This document shows, one piece after another, positions 12,001 to 63,000 of a stretch of 64,000 bases of DNA. The DNA is taken from NCBI RefSeq assembly GCF_006345805.1, contig NC_043015.1:13702001-13766000 (forward strand). The letters run 5' to 3'. Numbering within the stretch: position 1 is the stretch's first letter; each line of letters starts with the position of its first letter. Made by a program: the position numbers. Source of the DNA: Octopus sinensis (Eukaryota).

Positions 12001-15000
12001 ACACCTAACACTGCATATACACACATATATACATCAGGGTTTGATTAAGACCCATAGAAGCCCTAAGCACTTAAATGATTTTGGTGCCCCCCACCCATGT
12101 ATATGTAATTTAAAGTATAAATAATAATAAACCATAAAATATATATTTGTTTTCAAAATGAATCAAAACTAACAGTAAGAGGGAAAATAATGTTTATTTT
12201 TTTGTATACTTCTACTTTATTTAAGAGGGGATGAGGCAAAATGTGTAAGTGGGGTACAATGATTAATTTCTGATTTCTTTTTTTCTTCCTTGAACATCTA
12301 AGTTTAACTTGTCAAAATATTTTCGTCGCTATAAGACGGCGACCTGTTCACTGCCAAAAATCCGAAAATATTTTGACATATTAAACTTAAATGTTGAAGT
12401 GAATCGAATGGCTTTTGTGTGTTTCTTAAATGGCTTACAAACACCTTCCACGCTGCAATTATTTTCTCCCTACCTGCTTGAAACCGTTACATTGCAAGTA
12501 ATCCATCAGCATTTTGCACTGTTGCATCAACTGATATACATGTGTATACGCACACACACACATACTTACATACATACAAGCACAGATGCATGCATATATA
12601 CATACATGTGGCTGTGTGGTAAGAAGCTTACTTCCCAACCACATGGTTCCAGGTTCATTCCCACTGCATGGCACCTTGGGCAAGTGTCTTCTACTATAGC
12701 CTTGGGCTGATCAAAACCTTACAAGTAGATTTGGTAGGTGGAAACTGAAAGAAACCCATTGTATGTATATATATATATATAAAGTTAATCTAAACAAGAA
12801 AGCACAAAAAAACACAACAACACGAGGACATGGACAAATATAGTATTATTGGACACTCAGGAAAGAAGGAAAGAAGGAGGGTTTAATGTTTCGAGCGGAG
12901 CTCTTCGTTGGAAACATATGTGTGTGTGTCTTTGTGTCTGTGTCTGTCCCCCCACCATCGCTTGACAACCAATGTTGATATGTTTATGTCCCTGTAACTG
13001 TAACTTAGCGGTTTGGCAAAAGAGACCAATAGAATAAGTACTAGGCTTACAAAAGAATAAGTCCTGAGGTTGATTTCTTTGACTAAACCCCGTTAAGACA
13101 GTGCTCCACCATGGCCATGGTCAAATGACTGAAACAAGTAAAAGAATAAAAAAATAACATAAAAGACGGAAAGAAACTGATGTGGATTCTCCAGATTCAA
13201 TTCATAAATGGCACAGTGAAGACTTGTAAGACTTTCCAAAAATTTAGATATAAAGTTGAATAGATGCACACACTTGGGTATATGCATCGACAGTTCAACC
13301 CACACTCCAACTCTACATATTTACAAACACCGGGTCTTGCCACTTAGCAACTAGCTTGGACGGACTCTCTTTAAGAACTTTATTAAAACTTAAAGAAAAT
13401 TCATACATATGTGTGTGCGTGCATACACACATCAGATACACACCCCAAATAAATGGAGTAAGGTAGAAACAAAGAGAGATTTAGAAAAAGGGAGGAGAAA
13501 AAAAACAAAGAGATTAAGAGAGAGAGAGAGAGAAAACAGAGAGAGAAAAAAATATATAGAGAGAGAGAGGTAAGGGGGCAAGTAATCGTCTGCTAACGAA
13601 CTAATTCTCGTTCTCTCTCGTCTGACGGACATGTTGCCATTGACAGCAACTTTATAATCCAAGTTTTGTTGTTTCTTTTCTGAACAGTCCTCGTTCTAAT
13701 TCTTAAATCACAGCAAATATGGGTAACAAACAAACCGCTCTGAATCATGATGATCTGGAAGCTTATCAGGTATAAATTTATATATATATAAATACATCCA
13801 ACTAATTCTGAAATCCTTATTATACGTCAGCTGCGAACACAGTGACATAATTTACGGAAATGATTCTACTTAAAAGTCGTTTTAAGCCGCAATTTCATGT
13901 GTCAAACAAGATATTTTTACATTAATTTCGATGAGTTCATATTATATTATATATAGTTTACACTTCAGCGACTGTTTTCATGTTTATGATATTACCCATG
14001 ATAGTATTTTCTCTAAATTAAGGTATGAATAATGTCAGGACGATGAGACATTCCGGAAATTAATTTCAGCTTGTCATTTTAAGCTAAAGAAATATAAATA
14101 AATCATGTACGGAAGTGATTCTTCTTTTAATTGCGTATGAAATACTGTTGATTTATTATTAACCTTTCCTGCTAATATTTTTATTGTTTACTGAGGTCGC
14201 TGTCGTATTCTGTTTAGCAATCATCATTGTAATTTTTCTGTTCTGTTTTTGAGTTTGTTGGTCAGTTCTAATCGAGCAGTCCCATAACATGCAGGTAGTC
14301 GACCGAACCACTATGGTTGTCTCAATGTTTATGTATATATTTTTGGACCACCACCTTCACGCCAAATTGACGGAACGATTTTTTTTATAAACATACGTAT
14401 GGACGTGTATTTGAATGTTCACAAATACACGTCCATGCGTATGTTTATAAAAAAAGAAATCGTTTCCCTCAATTTGGTGTATGTGATCGCGGTGGTGGTG
14501 GTGGTCATTTGTGCAGATTTGGTGTGATTTCTTTTTTAAAAACAATAATGAATAATGCAAGAATATATTTATTTATAAAGTTTAAACAGAACATGGAATG
14601 AAATGTATTTATTTATAAATTTTAAACTGAACTTCAATTGTTTTATAAACCTAACAGCGTGGTAAATAAACGGCGTAAATTAACGAAGGTATAAACCTGA
14701 CGTAAATACACGAAGTTGACTACTTTCACTTCTGACAACTAAAGGCATGACAGTGCCATTTATATTTATATTTATCTTCTGGGCATACATATATACAGAT
14801 ACACCTACTCAAACTTGTATATGCTGCGATTGACTAAGGTAGAAAGAAAGAGTTATGGTGAGGAGGATTTCGAGTTGGAACGATCGCATGTTTGTTTATT
14901 TTCGCACATCTTCCTCTTTTTACCATTCCACCCCGTCCTTTGCTCAGATTTCTGCACTGCTCGGGTCCTCGGCTTCCCCAATCCAGTGGTCATCGCCTCA

Positions 15001-60000: not shown

Positions 60001-63000
60001 CGTTGTTTTAGTTATCTTCATCATTTAATTAAACAGTTCTTACTCAGTCGTCTGCTAGAGATGCTCCACCCTTTACCCATCCCTCATACAACTGAACAAT
60101 TCAATTCTATATCATAATGATTAAGTAATAGACTTAACGCAGTTGATTCTCTGAAACACAATAATAGACCGGAATCTGGTCGTTGACGGACACTAGCACA
60201 ATAATATGTGATGTATTTGTGGTACCAAGAATGGTCAAGAATATATTCTTGATAATAATGATAAAGAGGTTGTCAGAGAAATCAATTGCTAATTTAATCA
60301 CTTATTGATTAAAAACAGTAAAATGTCTTTCGATTTACCCTGGCATAAAGTGCGGTGCCACATAGTCTGTCTTGGTAGTCGTTATTAGAGTTCCAGCAGC
60401 TCTTGACATTTCAATGGCATCAAACGAAACCGACTAAAAATACGTTAATCGTTAGAGAGATCCAAGCCAACCGCTGTCCTTGGGAAAAAATTTCTTGCCA
60501 GGATGAACATAGATCGAAAGGTGAAACGAGTTCTAGTTTTCAATCGAAAACTGATTTCAGTTGTGTTTGTTATTTTTTGTTATTGTTGTTATTCATAATA
60601 GGATTGTTTACATGAAACTAAGCAAAACTGGTTACTATTGGTTACCAGACTCACATCGACAGTTTCCGATCTTTACCGGAATCAACGCTTCCTACCTCTC
60701 TATTGAGGAGAGCAAATATGGCTGCATAGAGCTGTCGAATCCAACTGTGTTGGCAGCGTTTATGTTATTGTTGTTGTTGTCGTCGTCGCTGCAACTGATT
60801 TCACTATCTCACATTTTCCCTTTCGGTTTTACTACTTTAATCGGTGAGTTGACTTTGTACACTTTTCATTCTGTAACATTGTTATCATTTACTATACATA
60901 TCTATATAGATATATATATATATGTATATATATATATGTATGTATATATATCATCCGCGACATTAAGATGGCTGGTGCTCTTTCCTTAATTCCAAAACTG
61001 ACCATCGTAGCTTATACATTAGTTTGATAACGTCTTATATTTAGTCACTATGTAAAAAGTTTGCTGAAATGGCGAAGCCTACACTAATATCAATGGTAAT
61101 GATGTATATTTATTACGAGTACCAACCGTATGAGGGATTTCTCCTCATCACAGATTGCTCTGTTTATCTTAACGGATAATATGTTTCCCTTTTGGGAACC
61201 TAATATTTTTTAAAGACAACTGAATAAAATGTTGGGCTATCATCAATCTAAAGCTGTTATGTTGTAATGAACATACTGAAGCATTTATCACCGGTGCTGT
61301 TTCTGCTGATGTTGAACTTGTGTGTTTATTGCCACTGGCTTTGAATGAACGGTGTGAACTTATTCCGCTACAGAACTGTCTCCCTGCCTTCATTTTGTGG
61401 ATTGTTCTTCGGTTTTCATTGACACAAAAGTTTATTTTCTTATATGTGTTCGACCTCCCTTTATTATATATATATATATATATGTGTGTGTGTGTAACGT
61501 AAATATGAATGGGATATATATATATATATAGATATAAGATTTACTCTCTCTCTCTCTATATATATATATATATGTGTGTGTATGAATATGTGTGTGTGTA
61601 TCGTATACTGGGCCTTAGTGTTTGTACAGTTTTTATTCTCCTAAATGATTCATTATTATTCTTGTCTCTGAGCTGTGTTGATCCTTTTTCTGATCATGGT
61701 CATTTCACTCAAAATATAGTGAAAAAGGAAATCAAATTTACAAAATAAGTCAGTATTTTGTTCATTTAACACCTTATAAATACACTCGAACCCTTATCTT
61801 TTATCTGTCTTCTCAATTCAGTGATATTCTTTTAAATTAGAATTTGCGACTAAGTTTTCAAAATGTGTTTGTTATACAGTAAATATACTGTCGTTCCGTT
61901 CTTGCTAACAAGTAGCACCCCTTTTCGTATAAAGAGCTCCACCCAACATTTAATGTTTGATTTGAAATCAATGTAGAAGCATTTAAGTTCAAAATTACTG
62001 TCATCCTTTTGGCGTGTTTCTGTTGTCTTATATTCTAGTAATATTGTCTTAGTGTATCTTTCCTTTTTGATGGTGTCGAGGGTGGAGGCCTAGATTCAGT
62101 TTAGAAAGAAAGGGATGATTTTAATATTTTGGAATTTTAAAAATTATTGCATTTTACCTCCTAAGTAAAAAAATTTCTCATTAACTGATAACATAAAATT
62201 GGGTGTCATCCTCCCAGCTTGTTGCATATTTTAAAAATATGTAATTTTGTTTGGATTTTTCTTTCTTTTACACTATCTTGGTTCATTTCATTTCCACGTT
62301 TCCATACTATTATGGAGTATAATTGAAATATTTTGTCGTTTTCCCTTCTTTACATACTCACCACTCCCTTGTTTTAAACTTTTTTTTATTCATCTATCTA
62401 TTTGTATGGGTCTATATGTTTCTAGAACTGATGATTTAAGGGTGAAATGCCCTTTCCAGCAACAACCATTTTAACTTAAGGGAGACTGGTACACATTTTT
62501 TCCATGTGTGATTAATTGCCTTGTAAATTTGTGGCTAACACCCACATTATATTATATTCCGTTTACATTTTAGTTCATCACACTGCTCTTATTTTCACTT
62601 GATCTCTTCATATATTCATTCATACTGTTGAACTCTTCTTGATCATCTGATATTTCCAGCTCTCAATTTTCTTCCCTCAAGAGATCAGAAACTTGCTTAT
62701 TTCCACGATTTTCAATAAGTTACCATGAAAATATTTCATATTTAACTTTTGATATCTGATTAGTTGTGTTTATTATATCATTACTCATTCTATTCTGTGT
62801 CAAAGTTCAATTTATGAATGGACAGACATAAATACATATGTGTGTGTATATGTCACTTATAAGGATATATGAGTATTTTCAGATTGTCTGAGCATTTGTT
62901 TAAGTTTTTTCTTTAGATTTAGGCTCTCTAATTACTGAAAGCTAAAAGGATCCCCTGCATTTTTACTAGTTTCCCTTATAACTGACCATGTTATGTATCT

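What the first reader, a model, noticed from the sequence alone, without database searches (positions are those of the whole stretch)
13719..60409. Convergent CIB and FAM166C gene pair mirrors the human CIB4/C2orf70 pair: possible ancient cilia/sperm microsynteny
Seen: a 7-exon CIB gene (+) and a 4-exon FAM166C gene (-) face tail-to-tail with stops 5.4 kb apart and no gene recognised between them. Recalled knowledge: on human 2p23.3, C2orf70/CIMIP2C and the testis-enriched CIB4 are adjacent and convergent. The protein shares CIB4-like features (H..DLE.YQ, VNPF, DLDND..LSF, SF.IH) along with CIB1-like ones. Inference: the pair was kept in the same orientation since the protostome-deuterostome ancestor, despite the extensive rearrangement of coleoid genomes. 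That suggests shared regulation or a functional link between a myristoylated Ca2+ sensor and an axonemal inner protein, and that CIB4 marks the ancestral CIB1/4 locus.
Basis: partly seen in the sequence, partly recalled or inferred. Interest (0 to 1): 0.8.

Follow-up and report, generated by a model that had tools for sequence, protein, structure and literature searches.

The report
Octopus CIB and FAM166C neighbour genes
Two ordinary animal genes, a calcium-sensor gene of the CIB family and the cilia/sperm-tail gene FAM166C, lie tail to tail in this octopus sequence as their counterparts do in mammals, so this is probably a very old gene neighbourhood; nothing shows that the two proteins work together.

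Summary
A 7-exon CIB gene (+, ATG 13719, stop 36397-36399, 187 codons) and a 4-exon FAM166C/CIMIP2C gene (-, ATG 60409, stop 41823-41821, 188 codons) converge. Their stops are 5,421 bp apart and I found no gene between them.

FAM166C identity is firm. Exon 2 matches solved FAM166C of sea urchin, human, cattle and mouse over about 90 residues, but matches FAM166A/B only over a roughly 25-residue motif.

The CIB sits in a slowly evolving clade shared by cnidarians, protostomes and invertebrate deuterostomes. It is clearly outside the CIB2/3 clade and moderately separated from a CIB1-like group. That makes it the CIB4 clade by elimination, using a 2026 preprint's three-clade scheme. No named vertebrate CIB4 could be put in the tree.

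Linkage:
- The limpet Patella caerulea has consecutive locus tags for the two genes.
- 6 of 10 species share one contig length for both genes; 4 of 10 do not.
- Ordered pig and cattle gene lists read KCNK3, CIB4, CIMIP2C, OTOF.

Ancient adjacency is therefore probable. Orientation in mammals is only recalled. Non-mollusc invertebrates went unchecked apart from one bryozoan, where the genes are unlinked. Shared regulation or function is untested. Interest is moderate to low.

The parts
13719..13769 (+). CIB exon 1 (MGNKQT...EAYQ; ATG at 13719; Gly2 and Thr6 fit the N-myristoylation consensus)
   Evidence: Read directly. tblastn to Argonauta P0003 gives 82% over 17 aa. Donor GTATAA.
20833..20867 (+). 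CIB exon 2 (ELTFFTRQDIL, ends in phase 2)
24805..24901 (+). CIB exon 3
   Evidence: 93% over 27 aa to O. bimaculoides P0001.
25749..25896 (+). CIB exon 4 (VNPF...KIY; followed by a GC-AG intron)
   Evidence: PDB best hits are CIB2 at 2.5e-15 and CIB1 at 4.4e-14.
27720..27841 (+). CIB exon 5 (third EF-hand loop DFSNNNMITSQD)
33214..33302 (+). CIB exon 6 (fourth EF-hand loop [12 protein letters not shown])
   Evidence: (EF-hand_1 25.8 bits, cut-off 25.4).
36378..36399 (+). CIB exon 7 (..SFCIHL, TGA at 36397-36399)
36400..41820 (.). 5,421-bp spacer between the two stop codons. It holds both presumed 3' ends and no recognised gene.
   Evidence: (poly-A signal motifs).
41821..41929 (-). FAM166C exon 4 (..YQHPVY...SCYDE, TAA at 41823-41821)
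   Evidence: 97% over 35 aa to P0121.
48347..48459 (-). FAM166C exon 3
   Evidence: 95% over 39 aa to P0121.
53418..53691 (-). FAM166C exon 2 (PF10629 CMI2B-like region; the PGY.G motif spans the exon 1/2 junction)
   Evidence: (2.7e-21).
60339..60409 (-). FAM166C exon 1 (ATG at 60409)
   Evidence: (24 of 24 aa identical to P0121).

Best explanation
The window, from an octopus close to but not identical with Octopus bimaculoides, carries two ordinary, intact host genes transcribed towards each other.

The first encodes an N-myristoylatable EF-hand calcium sensor of the CIB family. It belongs to the slowly evolving pan-eumetazoan clade that is neither CIB2/3 nor CIB1-like, most likely the CIB4 clade.

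The second encodes FAM166C/CIMIP2C, a short PYG-motif protein that in solved structures lines the inside of axonemal doublet microtubules.

The neighbourhood is most likely inherited from the bilaterian ancestor. It corresponds to the mammalian CIB4-CIMIP2C pair.

My inference is that it persisted mainly passively. The genes are packed tail to tail with a short spacer that offers few harmless breakpoints. A shared testis or ciliated-cell expression domain may have helped. Obligatory co-regulation or a physical interaction is not needed to explain it. The two genes have no shared promoter.
For: Shown here:
- Gene models with correct splice sites and lengths.
- FAM166C exon 2 against solved structures: sea urchin FAM166C (8snb) 2.2e-21, human (7ung) 3.4e-17, cattle (8otz) 3.8e-15, mouse (8i7o) 1.1e-11, each over about 90 residues. 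FAM166B reaches at best 5.3e-07, over residues 10-34 only.
- All 53 relatives of the octopus FAM166C protein carry PF10629. Those that are named are called FAM166C, CIMIP2C or C2orf70 homologue.
- The full-length Argonauta orthologue of the CIB scores alike against solved CIB1 (158.2 bits), CALM-1 (157.3), CIB2 (156.8) and CIB3 (155.2).
- By contrast, representative P0183 prefers CALM-1/CIB2/CIB3 (224/218/207) over CIB1 (158). P0186 prefers CIB1 (166) over CALM-1 and CIB2/3 (141/132/123).
- In the careful ML tree (58 rows), the 31 named slow-clade rows including both cephalopods form one side of a branch (94/76). The set holding P0183 splits off at 100/91. P0186 plus P0236 split off at 94/81.

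Linkage:
- 10 species are named in both hit lists. 6 of 10 have the same longest-contig length for both genes: O. bimaculoides, Argonauta hians, Patella caerulea, Gigantopelta aegis, Tegillarca granosa, Liolophura sinensis.
- In Patella the locus tags are consecutive (SNE40_012025 and SNE40_012026).

Mammals:
- Ordered gene lists read KCNK3, CIB4, CIMIP2C, OTOF in pig and cattle.
- Both genes lie in one human chr2 locus near 26.7 Mb.

From papers:
- A preprint states that eumetazoans have three old CIB clades, CIB23, CIB4 and CIB1, and that CIB4 is slow-evolving (passages).
- CIB4 is testis-enriched in mouse and human.
- Cimip2c was studied as a gene enriched in male reproductive organs.
Against: - No named vertebrate CIB4 or CIB1 sequence was in any tree. 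Clade labels rest on PDB score preferences of single unnamed representatives.
- The tree backbone is weak. Many forks are below 80, and the bootstrap had not settled.
- The Atlas look-alike search put chordate 'CIB1-like' and 'CIB1' clusters first, both at 0.97. That leans towards CIB1 rather than CIB4.
- NCBI names for clade members switch between 'CIB1-like' and 'CIB2-like'.
- Linkage is absent in 4 of 10 species: Candidula, Elysia chlorotica and Aplysia on different scaffolds, and the bryozoan Watersipora on different chromosomes.
- In Tegillarca the locus tags are about 490 apart.
- Equal contig length is an indirect sign that two genes share a contig.
- Orientation in mammals and in Patella was not seen.
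- Mouse Cimip2c knockouts are fertile, whereas CIB4 is reported as essential for spermiogenesis (title and abstract). So no common phenotype supports a functional link.
Confidence: 0.65

Rival explanations
1. The adjacency is ancestral and is actively maintained. Enhancers or a chromatin domain are shared by the two genes (regulatory entanglement in sperm or ciliated cells), or the two proteins act together.
For: - The pair is found in two mollusc classes and in mammals.
- Both mouse genes are testis-enriched or were studied as such.
- In the octopus window the pair lies among many transposon remnants and dispersed repeats.
Against: - Convergent genes share no promoter.
- The pair is split in 4 of 10 comparable species and is far apart in Tegillarca.
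- Cimip2c-null mice are fertile, unlike what is reported for Cib4.
- No expression, chromatin or binding data were available here, and no binding prediction was run.
Confidence: 0.2
2. The octopus CIB is not the CIB4 orthologue. It is a CIB1-clade gene or an unduplicated CIB1/4-type gene. Its position next to FAM166C then reflects either an older arrangement, in which several CIB paralogues lay near FAM166C, or an independent juxtaposition.
For: - The Atlas's nearest clusters are chordate 'CIB1-like' and 'CIB1'.
- Exon 6 scores higher with solved CIB1 (32.2 bits) than with CIB2 (24.8) or CIB3 (20.6).
- NCBI calls the octopus protein 'CIB1'.
- Separation from the CIB1-like group has only moderate support.
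Against: - The full-length orthologue shows no preference for CIB1 (158.2 bits against 155-157 for the others), whereas a true CIB1-like representative does.
- The clade is slow-evolving, as the preprint says of CIB4.
- An unnamed representative whose C-terminus I recall as that of mammalian CIB4 nested inside this clade in the exploratory tree. It scored 138 bits against the cephalopod orthologue and 115 against the CIB23 representative.
- Position next to FAM166C is itself the mammalian CIB4 position.
Confidence: 0.12
3. Chance. The two genes became neighbours independently in molluscs and in vertebrates.
For:
- The linkage is not universal.
Against: - For a given pair among tens of thousands of genes, independent immediate adjacency in two lineages is very unlikely. 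This is my estimate (about 1 in 10,000 per lineage), not a computed value.
- Among the 7 species where both hits lie on contigs of tens of megabases, which I take as chromosome-scale, 6 of 7 have both genes on one contig.
Confidence: 0.03

Closest known systems
Mammalian CIB4-CIMIP2C (C2orf70/FAM166C) neighbour pair at human 2p23.3, between KCNK3 and OTOF
   Same: A CIB-family gene lies directly beside FAM166C. Both lie in one human locus. They are listed consecutively in ordered pig and cattle gene lists. Tail-to-tail orientation in human is recalled only.
   Different: - The octopus window shows none of the other mammalian neighbours (KCNK3, OTOF, DRC1). Its flanks hold only transposon remnants and repeats.
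- CIB4 orthology of the octopus gene is inferred, not shown.
CIB family of EF-hand calcium sensors (solved: CIB1, CIB2, CIB3, C. elegans CALM-1)
   Same: - About 187 residues.
- An MG...T start.
- EF-hand loops in exons 5 and 6.
- The orthologue matches all solved CIBs at about 1e-45 over the full length.
   Different: It is equidistant from CIB1 and CIB2/3 and lies outside the CIB23 clade. No CIB4 appeared among the solved-structure matches to compare with.
FAM166C/CIMIP2C, a microtubule inner protein with a PYG motif (solved in 8snb, 7ung, 8otz, 8i7o)
   Same: - PF10629 match.
- PGY.G motif.
- About 90 aligned residues of exon 2.
- Similar length: 188 aa against 200-204.
   Different: The C-terminal third (exons 3-4) was compared only with mollusc proteins. 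Octopod proteins are shorter (183-188 aa) than most mollusc relatives, which are commonly 201 aa.
Conserved metazoan microsyntenic gene pairs (a known class; named from memory: Irimia et al. 2012, Simakov et al. 2013, and cephalopod work by Albertin et al. and Schmidbaur et al.)
   Same: Two unrelated genes kept adjacent across phyla.
   Different: Whether this pair is already in those lists is unknown.

Membership tests
CIB family (calcium and integrin-binding EF-hand proteins) | Sequence similarity over the whole length to known CIBs, well above other EF-hand families | tested here: met
   Exon 4: CIB2 2.5e-15, CIB3 9.5e-15, CALM-1 1.3e-14, CIB1 4.4e-14, against calcineurin B at 1.4e-06. Orthologue P0003: CIBs at 1e-43 to 1e-45, against calcineurin B at 1e-18 to 1e-21.
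CIB family (calcium and integrin-binding EF-hand proteins) | C-terminal EF-hand pair with calcium-binding loops | tested here: met
   Exon 6 scores 25.8 bits on EF-hand_1 (cut-off 25.4). Exons 4 and 5 give weaker EF-hand_7 hits below the cut-off, as expected for single exons. The loops were read directly.
CIB family (calcium and integrin-binding EF-hand proteins) | N-terminal myristoylation signal (Met-Gly, small or hydroxyl residue at position 6) | tested here: met
   MGNKQT was read. This is a consensus match only; the modification itself is not testable here.
CIB4 paralogy clade | Groups with named vertebrate CIB4 in a tree, apart from CIB1 and CIB2/3 | tested here: inconclusive
   - Outside CIB23 (100/91) and apart from a CIB1-like pair (94/81).
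- The assignment is by elimination under the preprint's three-clade scheme.
CIB4 paralogy clade | Genomic position beside FAM166C/CIMIP2C, as in mammals | tested here: met
   Window. Mammalian gene order.
FAM166C / CIMIP2C | PF10629 (CMI2B-like) region with PYG-type motif | tested here: met
   2.7e-21 and 75.9 bits against a 21.6-bit cut-off. The motif was read. The PYG repeat is described in PMC10973386.
FAM166C / CIMIP2C | Closer to FAM166C than to FAM166A/B beyond the shared motif | tested here: met
   Exon 2 aligns over about 90 residues to FAM166C from four species, and over about 25 residues to FAM166B/A.
FAM166C / CIMIP2C | Sits inside axonemal doublet microtubules | not testable with these tools
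   Known for the solved homologues only (names).
Ancient bilaterian microsyntenic pair | Adjacency in at least two distant phyla | tested here: met
   Mollusca: this window, and consecutive Patella locus tags. Chordata: pig and cattle ordered lists.
Ancient bilaterian microsyntenic pair | Same relative orientation in those phyla | not tested
   Convergent in the window. Human orientation is recalled. Patella, pig and cattle orientation was not seen.
Ancient bilaterian microsyntenic pair | Linkage in intermediate lineages | tested here: inconclusive
   6 of 10 species share one contig length and 4 of 10 do not. Nine of the ten are molluscs. The one bryozoan is unlinked. No non-vertebrate deuterostome or cnidarian could be compared.

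The most novel reading that the evidence does not exclude
CIB4 and CIMIP2C form a tail-to-tail unit kept since before the protostome-deuterostome split because regulatory elements for expression in flagellated or ciliated cells are interleaved between them. That would tie a TMC-type channel calcium-sensor subunit to axoneme building.
Probability: 0.15. Interest if true: 0.5.

Novelty: new member of a known kind. Interest (0 to 1): 0.32.

Why it matters
If the pair is truly ancestral, its position gives an independent way to name the invertebrate CIB paralogue that corresponds to vertebrate CIB4. Short, slowly evolving sequences alone resolve this poorly.

It would also add one more deeply conserved gene pair that survived the heavy reshuffling reported for coleoid genomes (recalled, not checked here). 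It offers a small, testable case for asking whether convergent pairs persist by constraint or by tight packing.

It changes nothing about what either protein is known to do.

Tried and rejected
- **Cluster names.** I labelled clades instead by their score preferences against solved structures and by a local score comparison.
- **Single-exon PDB searches.** Exon 5 found nothing at E up to 0.01 and exon 3 nothing at E up to 1. Exon 4 slightly prefers CIB2/3 and exon 6 prefers CIB1. So exon-level similarity cannot assign the paralogue.
- **P0177 and P0185.** I tested them as possible CIB1-type labels. Neither shows a clear preference.
- **Atlas look-alikes.** This gave only family-level leads.
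- **First FAM166C search.** Exon 2 against longer proteins found 1 protein among 15 candidates. A second search with the database octopus protein found 53 among 72.
- **Preprint details.** I looked for paralogue-specific motifs or introns in the preprint; none are spelled out in the text I could read.
A 'SFNIH' stretch near 35.28 kb was rejected because it has no acceptor site.
- **Flanks of the window.** I searched for other 2p23.3 neighbours. Only a reverse-transcriptase fragment, a DUF7041 ORF, a mariner remnant and simple repeats turned up.
- **The 211-aa open frame at 63363-63998.** It is a translated microsatellite.
- **Paper searches.** Searches for the pair together with synteny or microsynteny terms gave only human GWAS/ROH gene lists naming both genes. 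A separate search for CIMIP2C led to the pig and cattle gene lists.
- **Not run.** No binding prediction, because I do not claim that the proteins bind.

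
Full report
**What is in the window.** The window has no N and is AT-rich. A motif scan and six-frame reading found CIB-like and FAM166-like exons. I then read every junction in the DNA. I checked the models by local tblastn with database proteins: Octopus bimaculoides P0001 and P0121, Argonauta hians P0003, Acanthosepion P0091 and Lingula P0004.

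The CIB gene lies on the + strand and has 7 coding exons:
- 13719-13769
- 20833-20867
- 24805-24901
- 25749-25896
- 27720-27841
- 33214-33302
- 36378-36399

These total 564 nt, which is 187 codons plus TGA. That equals the length of the Argonauta protein.

FAM166C lies on the - strand and has 4 coding exons:
- 60409-60339
- 53691-53418
- 48459-48347
- 41929-41821

These total 567 nt, which is 188 codons plus TAA. That equals the length of the O. bimaculoides protein.

All 9 introns end in AG. 8 of 9 begin with GT. Intron 4 of CIB begins with GCAAGT. The GC donor is the only choice that keeps the conserved Y-D-F reading of the relatives.

The stops are 5,421 bp apart. Exon identities to O. bimaculoides are 92-100%. 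The source is therefore a close relative of that species, not the species itself.

I made no joined protein and searched with none. Where a full-length sequence was needed, database orthologues (P0003, P0121) stood in for the window's proteins. The window's own full proteins were therefore never placed in a tree. Exon 4 alone was a row, and it fell among the named slow-clade rows.

**Nothing between the genes.**
- Rfam found 0 matches and ARAGORN found 0 tRNAs in the whole window.
- The spacer has 16 stop-to-stop ORFs of at least 60 aa.
- I scanned 9 of those 16 against Pfam, and none reached a curated cut-off.
- Poly-A signal motifs follow both stops. The first AATAAA is at 37173 after CIB. 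ATTAAA at 41617 and AATAAA at 41521 follow FAM166C.
- The two 3' ends probably do not overlap. This is inferred.

**FAM166C identity.** Exon 2 matches Pfam PF10629 at 2.7e-21. Its matches to solved chains are:

| Solved chain | E-value | Aligned span |
|---|---|---|
| Sea urchin FAM166C | 2.2e-21 | about 90 residues |
| Human FAM166C | 3.4e-17 | about 90 residues |
| Cattle FAM166C | 3.8e-15 | about 90 residues |
| Mouse FAM166C | 1.1e-11 | about 90 residues |
| FAM166B | 5.3e-07 at best | about 25-residue motif only |
| FAM166A | 0.11 or worse | about 25-residue motif only |

A search with exon 2 against longer proteins found only the O. bimaculoides protein (1 of 15 candidates). A search with that protein found 53 relatives among 72 candidates. 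All carry PF10629, and those with names are called FAM166C, CIMIP2C or C2orf70 homologue.

PMC10973386 (five passages read) describes the family's PYG repeat as a module that binds the inner microtubule surface. The window has one such motif across the exon 1/2 junction.

**Which CIB.** Exon 4 found 248 proteins among 249 candidates. Among the 120 listed, none of the names shown is from a vertebrate or from Drosophila. The names switch between 'CIB1-like' and 'CIB2-like'.

Single exons do not decide the paralogue:
- Exon 4 scores CIB2 58.4, CIB3 56.6, CALM-1 56.2 and CIB1 54.5 bits.
- Exon 6 scores CIB1 32.2, CALM-1 31.8, CIB2 24.8 and CIB3 20.6 bits.
- Exons 3 and 5 found nothing.

Full-length queries against solved CIBs gave these bit scores:

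| Query | CIB1 | CALM-1 | CIB2 | CIB3 |
|---|---|---|---|---|
| P0003 (Argonauta orthologue) | 158.2 | 157.3 | 156.8 | 155.2 |
| P0183 | 158 | 224 | 218 | 207 |
| P0186 | 166 | 141 | 132 | 123 |

The Argonauta orthologue is thus equidistant from all solved CIBs. P0183 is clearly CIB2/3-type and P0186 leans to CIB1. P0185 and P0177 show no clear preference. All four unnamed queries come from an exhaustive HMMER search (3,133 hits at E up to 0.001, best 150 listed).

The trees:
- An exploratory FastTree used 178 rows.
- A quick ML tree used 88 rows.
- A careful ML tree used 58 rows: 31 named slow-clade proteins plus 27 unnamed representatives, over 185 columns.

The careful tree agrees on three points:
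- The named slow-clade proteins, from cnidarians to hemichordates, echinoderms, arthropods, annelids and molluscs, and including both cephalopods, form one side of a branch. Support is 94/76, and 98% of 200 bootstrap trees agree.
- The labelled CIB23 set splits off at 100/91.
- The CIB1-like pair splits off at 94/81.

The backbone is otherwise poorly resolved, and the bootstrap had not fully settled.

Rows left out of the careful tree:
- 89 of the 120 proteins.
- 119 of the 146 new representatives. These were fragments, lengths outside 165-215 aa, very long branches, and five that might be human.

**The preprint's scheme.** A 2026 bioRxiv preprint (10.64898/2026.07.31.741574) was read as passages only; its figures are not held. 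It states that:
- Eumetazoans have three old CIB clades: CIB23, CIB4 and CIB1.
- Only CIB23 duplicated in vertebrates.
- Drosophila lost CIB4 and CIB1.

Under that scheme the octopus gene is CIB4 by elimination. It belongs to a slow clade that is neither the CIB23-labelled nor the CIB1-leaning group.

One further lead: an unnamed representative, P0208, ends in a motif that I recall as the mammalian CIB4 C-terminus.
- It nested inside this clade.
- It scored 138 bits against the cephalopod orthologue, against 115 for the CIB23 representative.
- Because it may be human and carries no name, I did not use it further.

Against this reading, the Atlas ranked chordate 'CIB1-like' and 'CIB1' clusters first. 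I put CIB4 orthology at about three in four.

**Linkage elsewhere.** The homologue tables give, for each protein, the length of the longest contig that carries it. Ten species are named in both tables.

|---|---|---|---|---|
| O. bimaculoides | 55,137,729 | 55,137,729 | yes | |
| Argonauta hians | 35,661,330 | 35,661,330 | yes | |
| Patella caerulea | 48,777,860 | 48,777,860 | yes | SNE40_012026 (CIB), SNE40_012025 (FAM166C) |
| Gigantopelta aegis | 102,884,749 | 102,884,749 | yes | |
| Liolophura sinensis | 60,359,117 | 60,359,117 | yes | |
| Tegillarca granosa | 51,137,090 | 51,137,090 | yes | KUTeg_016041, KUTeg_016534 (far apart) |
| Candidula | 565,268 | 168,194 | no | |
| Elysia chlorotica | 55,643 | 674,255 | no | |
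| Aplysia | 897,165 | 1,165,770 | no | |
| Watersipora (bryozoan) | 64,042,602 | 79,350,317 | no | |

The lengths are identical in 6 of 10 species. In Patella the tags are consecutive, which by usual annotation practice means neighbouring genes. Equal length is an indirect sign that two genes share a contig.

For mammals I saw one table row from each of four papers:
- Pig (PMC12071171): '...SLC35F6, KCNK3, CIB4, CIMIP2C, OTOF, DRC1...'.
- Cattle (PMC12188200): '...KCNK3, CIB4, CIMIP2C, OTOF'.
- Human (PMC5897035): both genes at the KCNK3 locus, chr2 near 26.7 Mb.
- Human (PMC4794977): both genes in one homozygosity run on chr2, 26.04-26.77 Mb.

No eukaryotic genome collection was on hand. So amphioxus, echinoderms, annelids, brachiopods and cnidarians stayed unchecked.

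**How it most likely works.** Each gene does its own job.
- The CIB protein has an MG...T start fitting N-myristoylation and two C-terminal EF-hand loops.
- By analogy with solved CIBs, it should bind calcium and clamp a helical segment of a partner. That partner may be a TMC-type channel, as the preprint argues for CIB4 with Tmc4/8/7. This is inferred.
- FAM166C should line the lumen of axonemal doublets, by homology.
- The genes converge, so they share no promoter.

I think the neighbourhood is an inherited one that survived mostly because the two 3' ends are close together and offer a small target for rearrangement. A common testis or cilia expression domain is a possible aid:
- Mouse and human CIB4 are testis-enriched (PMC7401386, three passages).
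- Cimip2c was chosen as a gene enriched in male reproductive organs (PMC13253961, four passages).

The splits in heterobranch gastropods, Tegillarca and a bryozoan argue against a strong constraint. So do the different mouse phenotypes: Cimip2c-null males are fertile, while Cib4 is reported as essential for spermiogenesis (title and abstract).

**Novelty.** Both genes are known, and conserved neighbour pairs are a known phenomenon. My full-text searches were:
- CIB4 with C2orf70.
- CIB4 with FAM166C.
- CIB4 with synteny.
- Microsynteny with any of the three gene names.

They found only gene lists, with no statement that this pair is conserved beyond vertebrates. Published microsynteny lists are in supplements, which were closed, so the pair may already be recorded there. 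I rate it a new member of a known kind, of moderate to low interest.

Noticed in passing
window 25897-27719: CIB intron 4 is a GC-AG intron (donor GCAAGT). A GT six bases downstream would break the frame or delete the conserved D-F of the third EF-hand.
   Followed up: partly
window 46815-47783 (-): A mariner/Mos1-type transposase remnant split over several frames lies inside FAM166C intron 3. HTH_48 scores 5.8e-19 at 47562-47783 and DDE_3 scores 2.8e-04 at 46815-47129.
   Followed up: partly
window 6409-7742 (-) and 11193-11540 (-): Retroelement remnants lie upstream of CIB. One is a reverse-transcriptase fragment (RVT_1 6.4e-16, with a weak PHD-like hit) at 7020-7742, with a possible continuation at 6409-7137 that I recognised by eye only (no Pfam hit). 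The other is a DUF7041 ORF (6.7e-24).
   Followed up: partly
window, 21 places (e.g. 5631-5949, 9386-9782, 33928-34176, 50509-50767, 52779-53066, 55564-55971): A dispersed short repeat of roughly 120-400 bp, SINE-like by size only, recurs in introns, flanks and the spacer. 12,141 of 64,000 bases take part in self-matches of at least 120 bp.
   Followed up: no
window 48600-50100, 58600-59300, 63360-64000: Long microsatellite and low-complexity tracts give spurious open frames (YIYIYI, SLSLSL, poly-I/L/Y) and a GC-skew spike at 48-50 kb.
   Followed up: no
window 13719-24901 versus protein P0001: The O. bimaculoides database protein named CIB1 has 152 aa and starts inside exon 3. The window has intact exons 1 and 2 that match the Argonauta N-terminus. 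The database model therefore looks truncated at its N-terminus.
   Followed up: partly
proteins P0176 (2,607 aa) and P0237 (2,825 aa): Two giant unnamed representatives match the CIB query in 13 and 12 separate stretches, as if built of many CIB-like EF-hand units. Their origin is unknown.
   Followed up: no
window 35281-35295 (+): A look-alike of the CIB C-terminus (SFNIH) lies in intron 6. It has no acceptor site and runs on for 8 more codons. It is a trap for by-eye annotation.
   Followed up: yes
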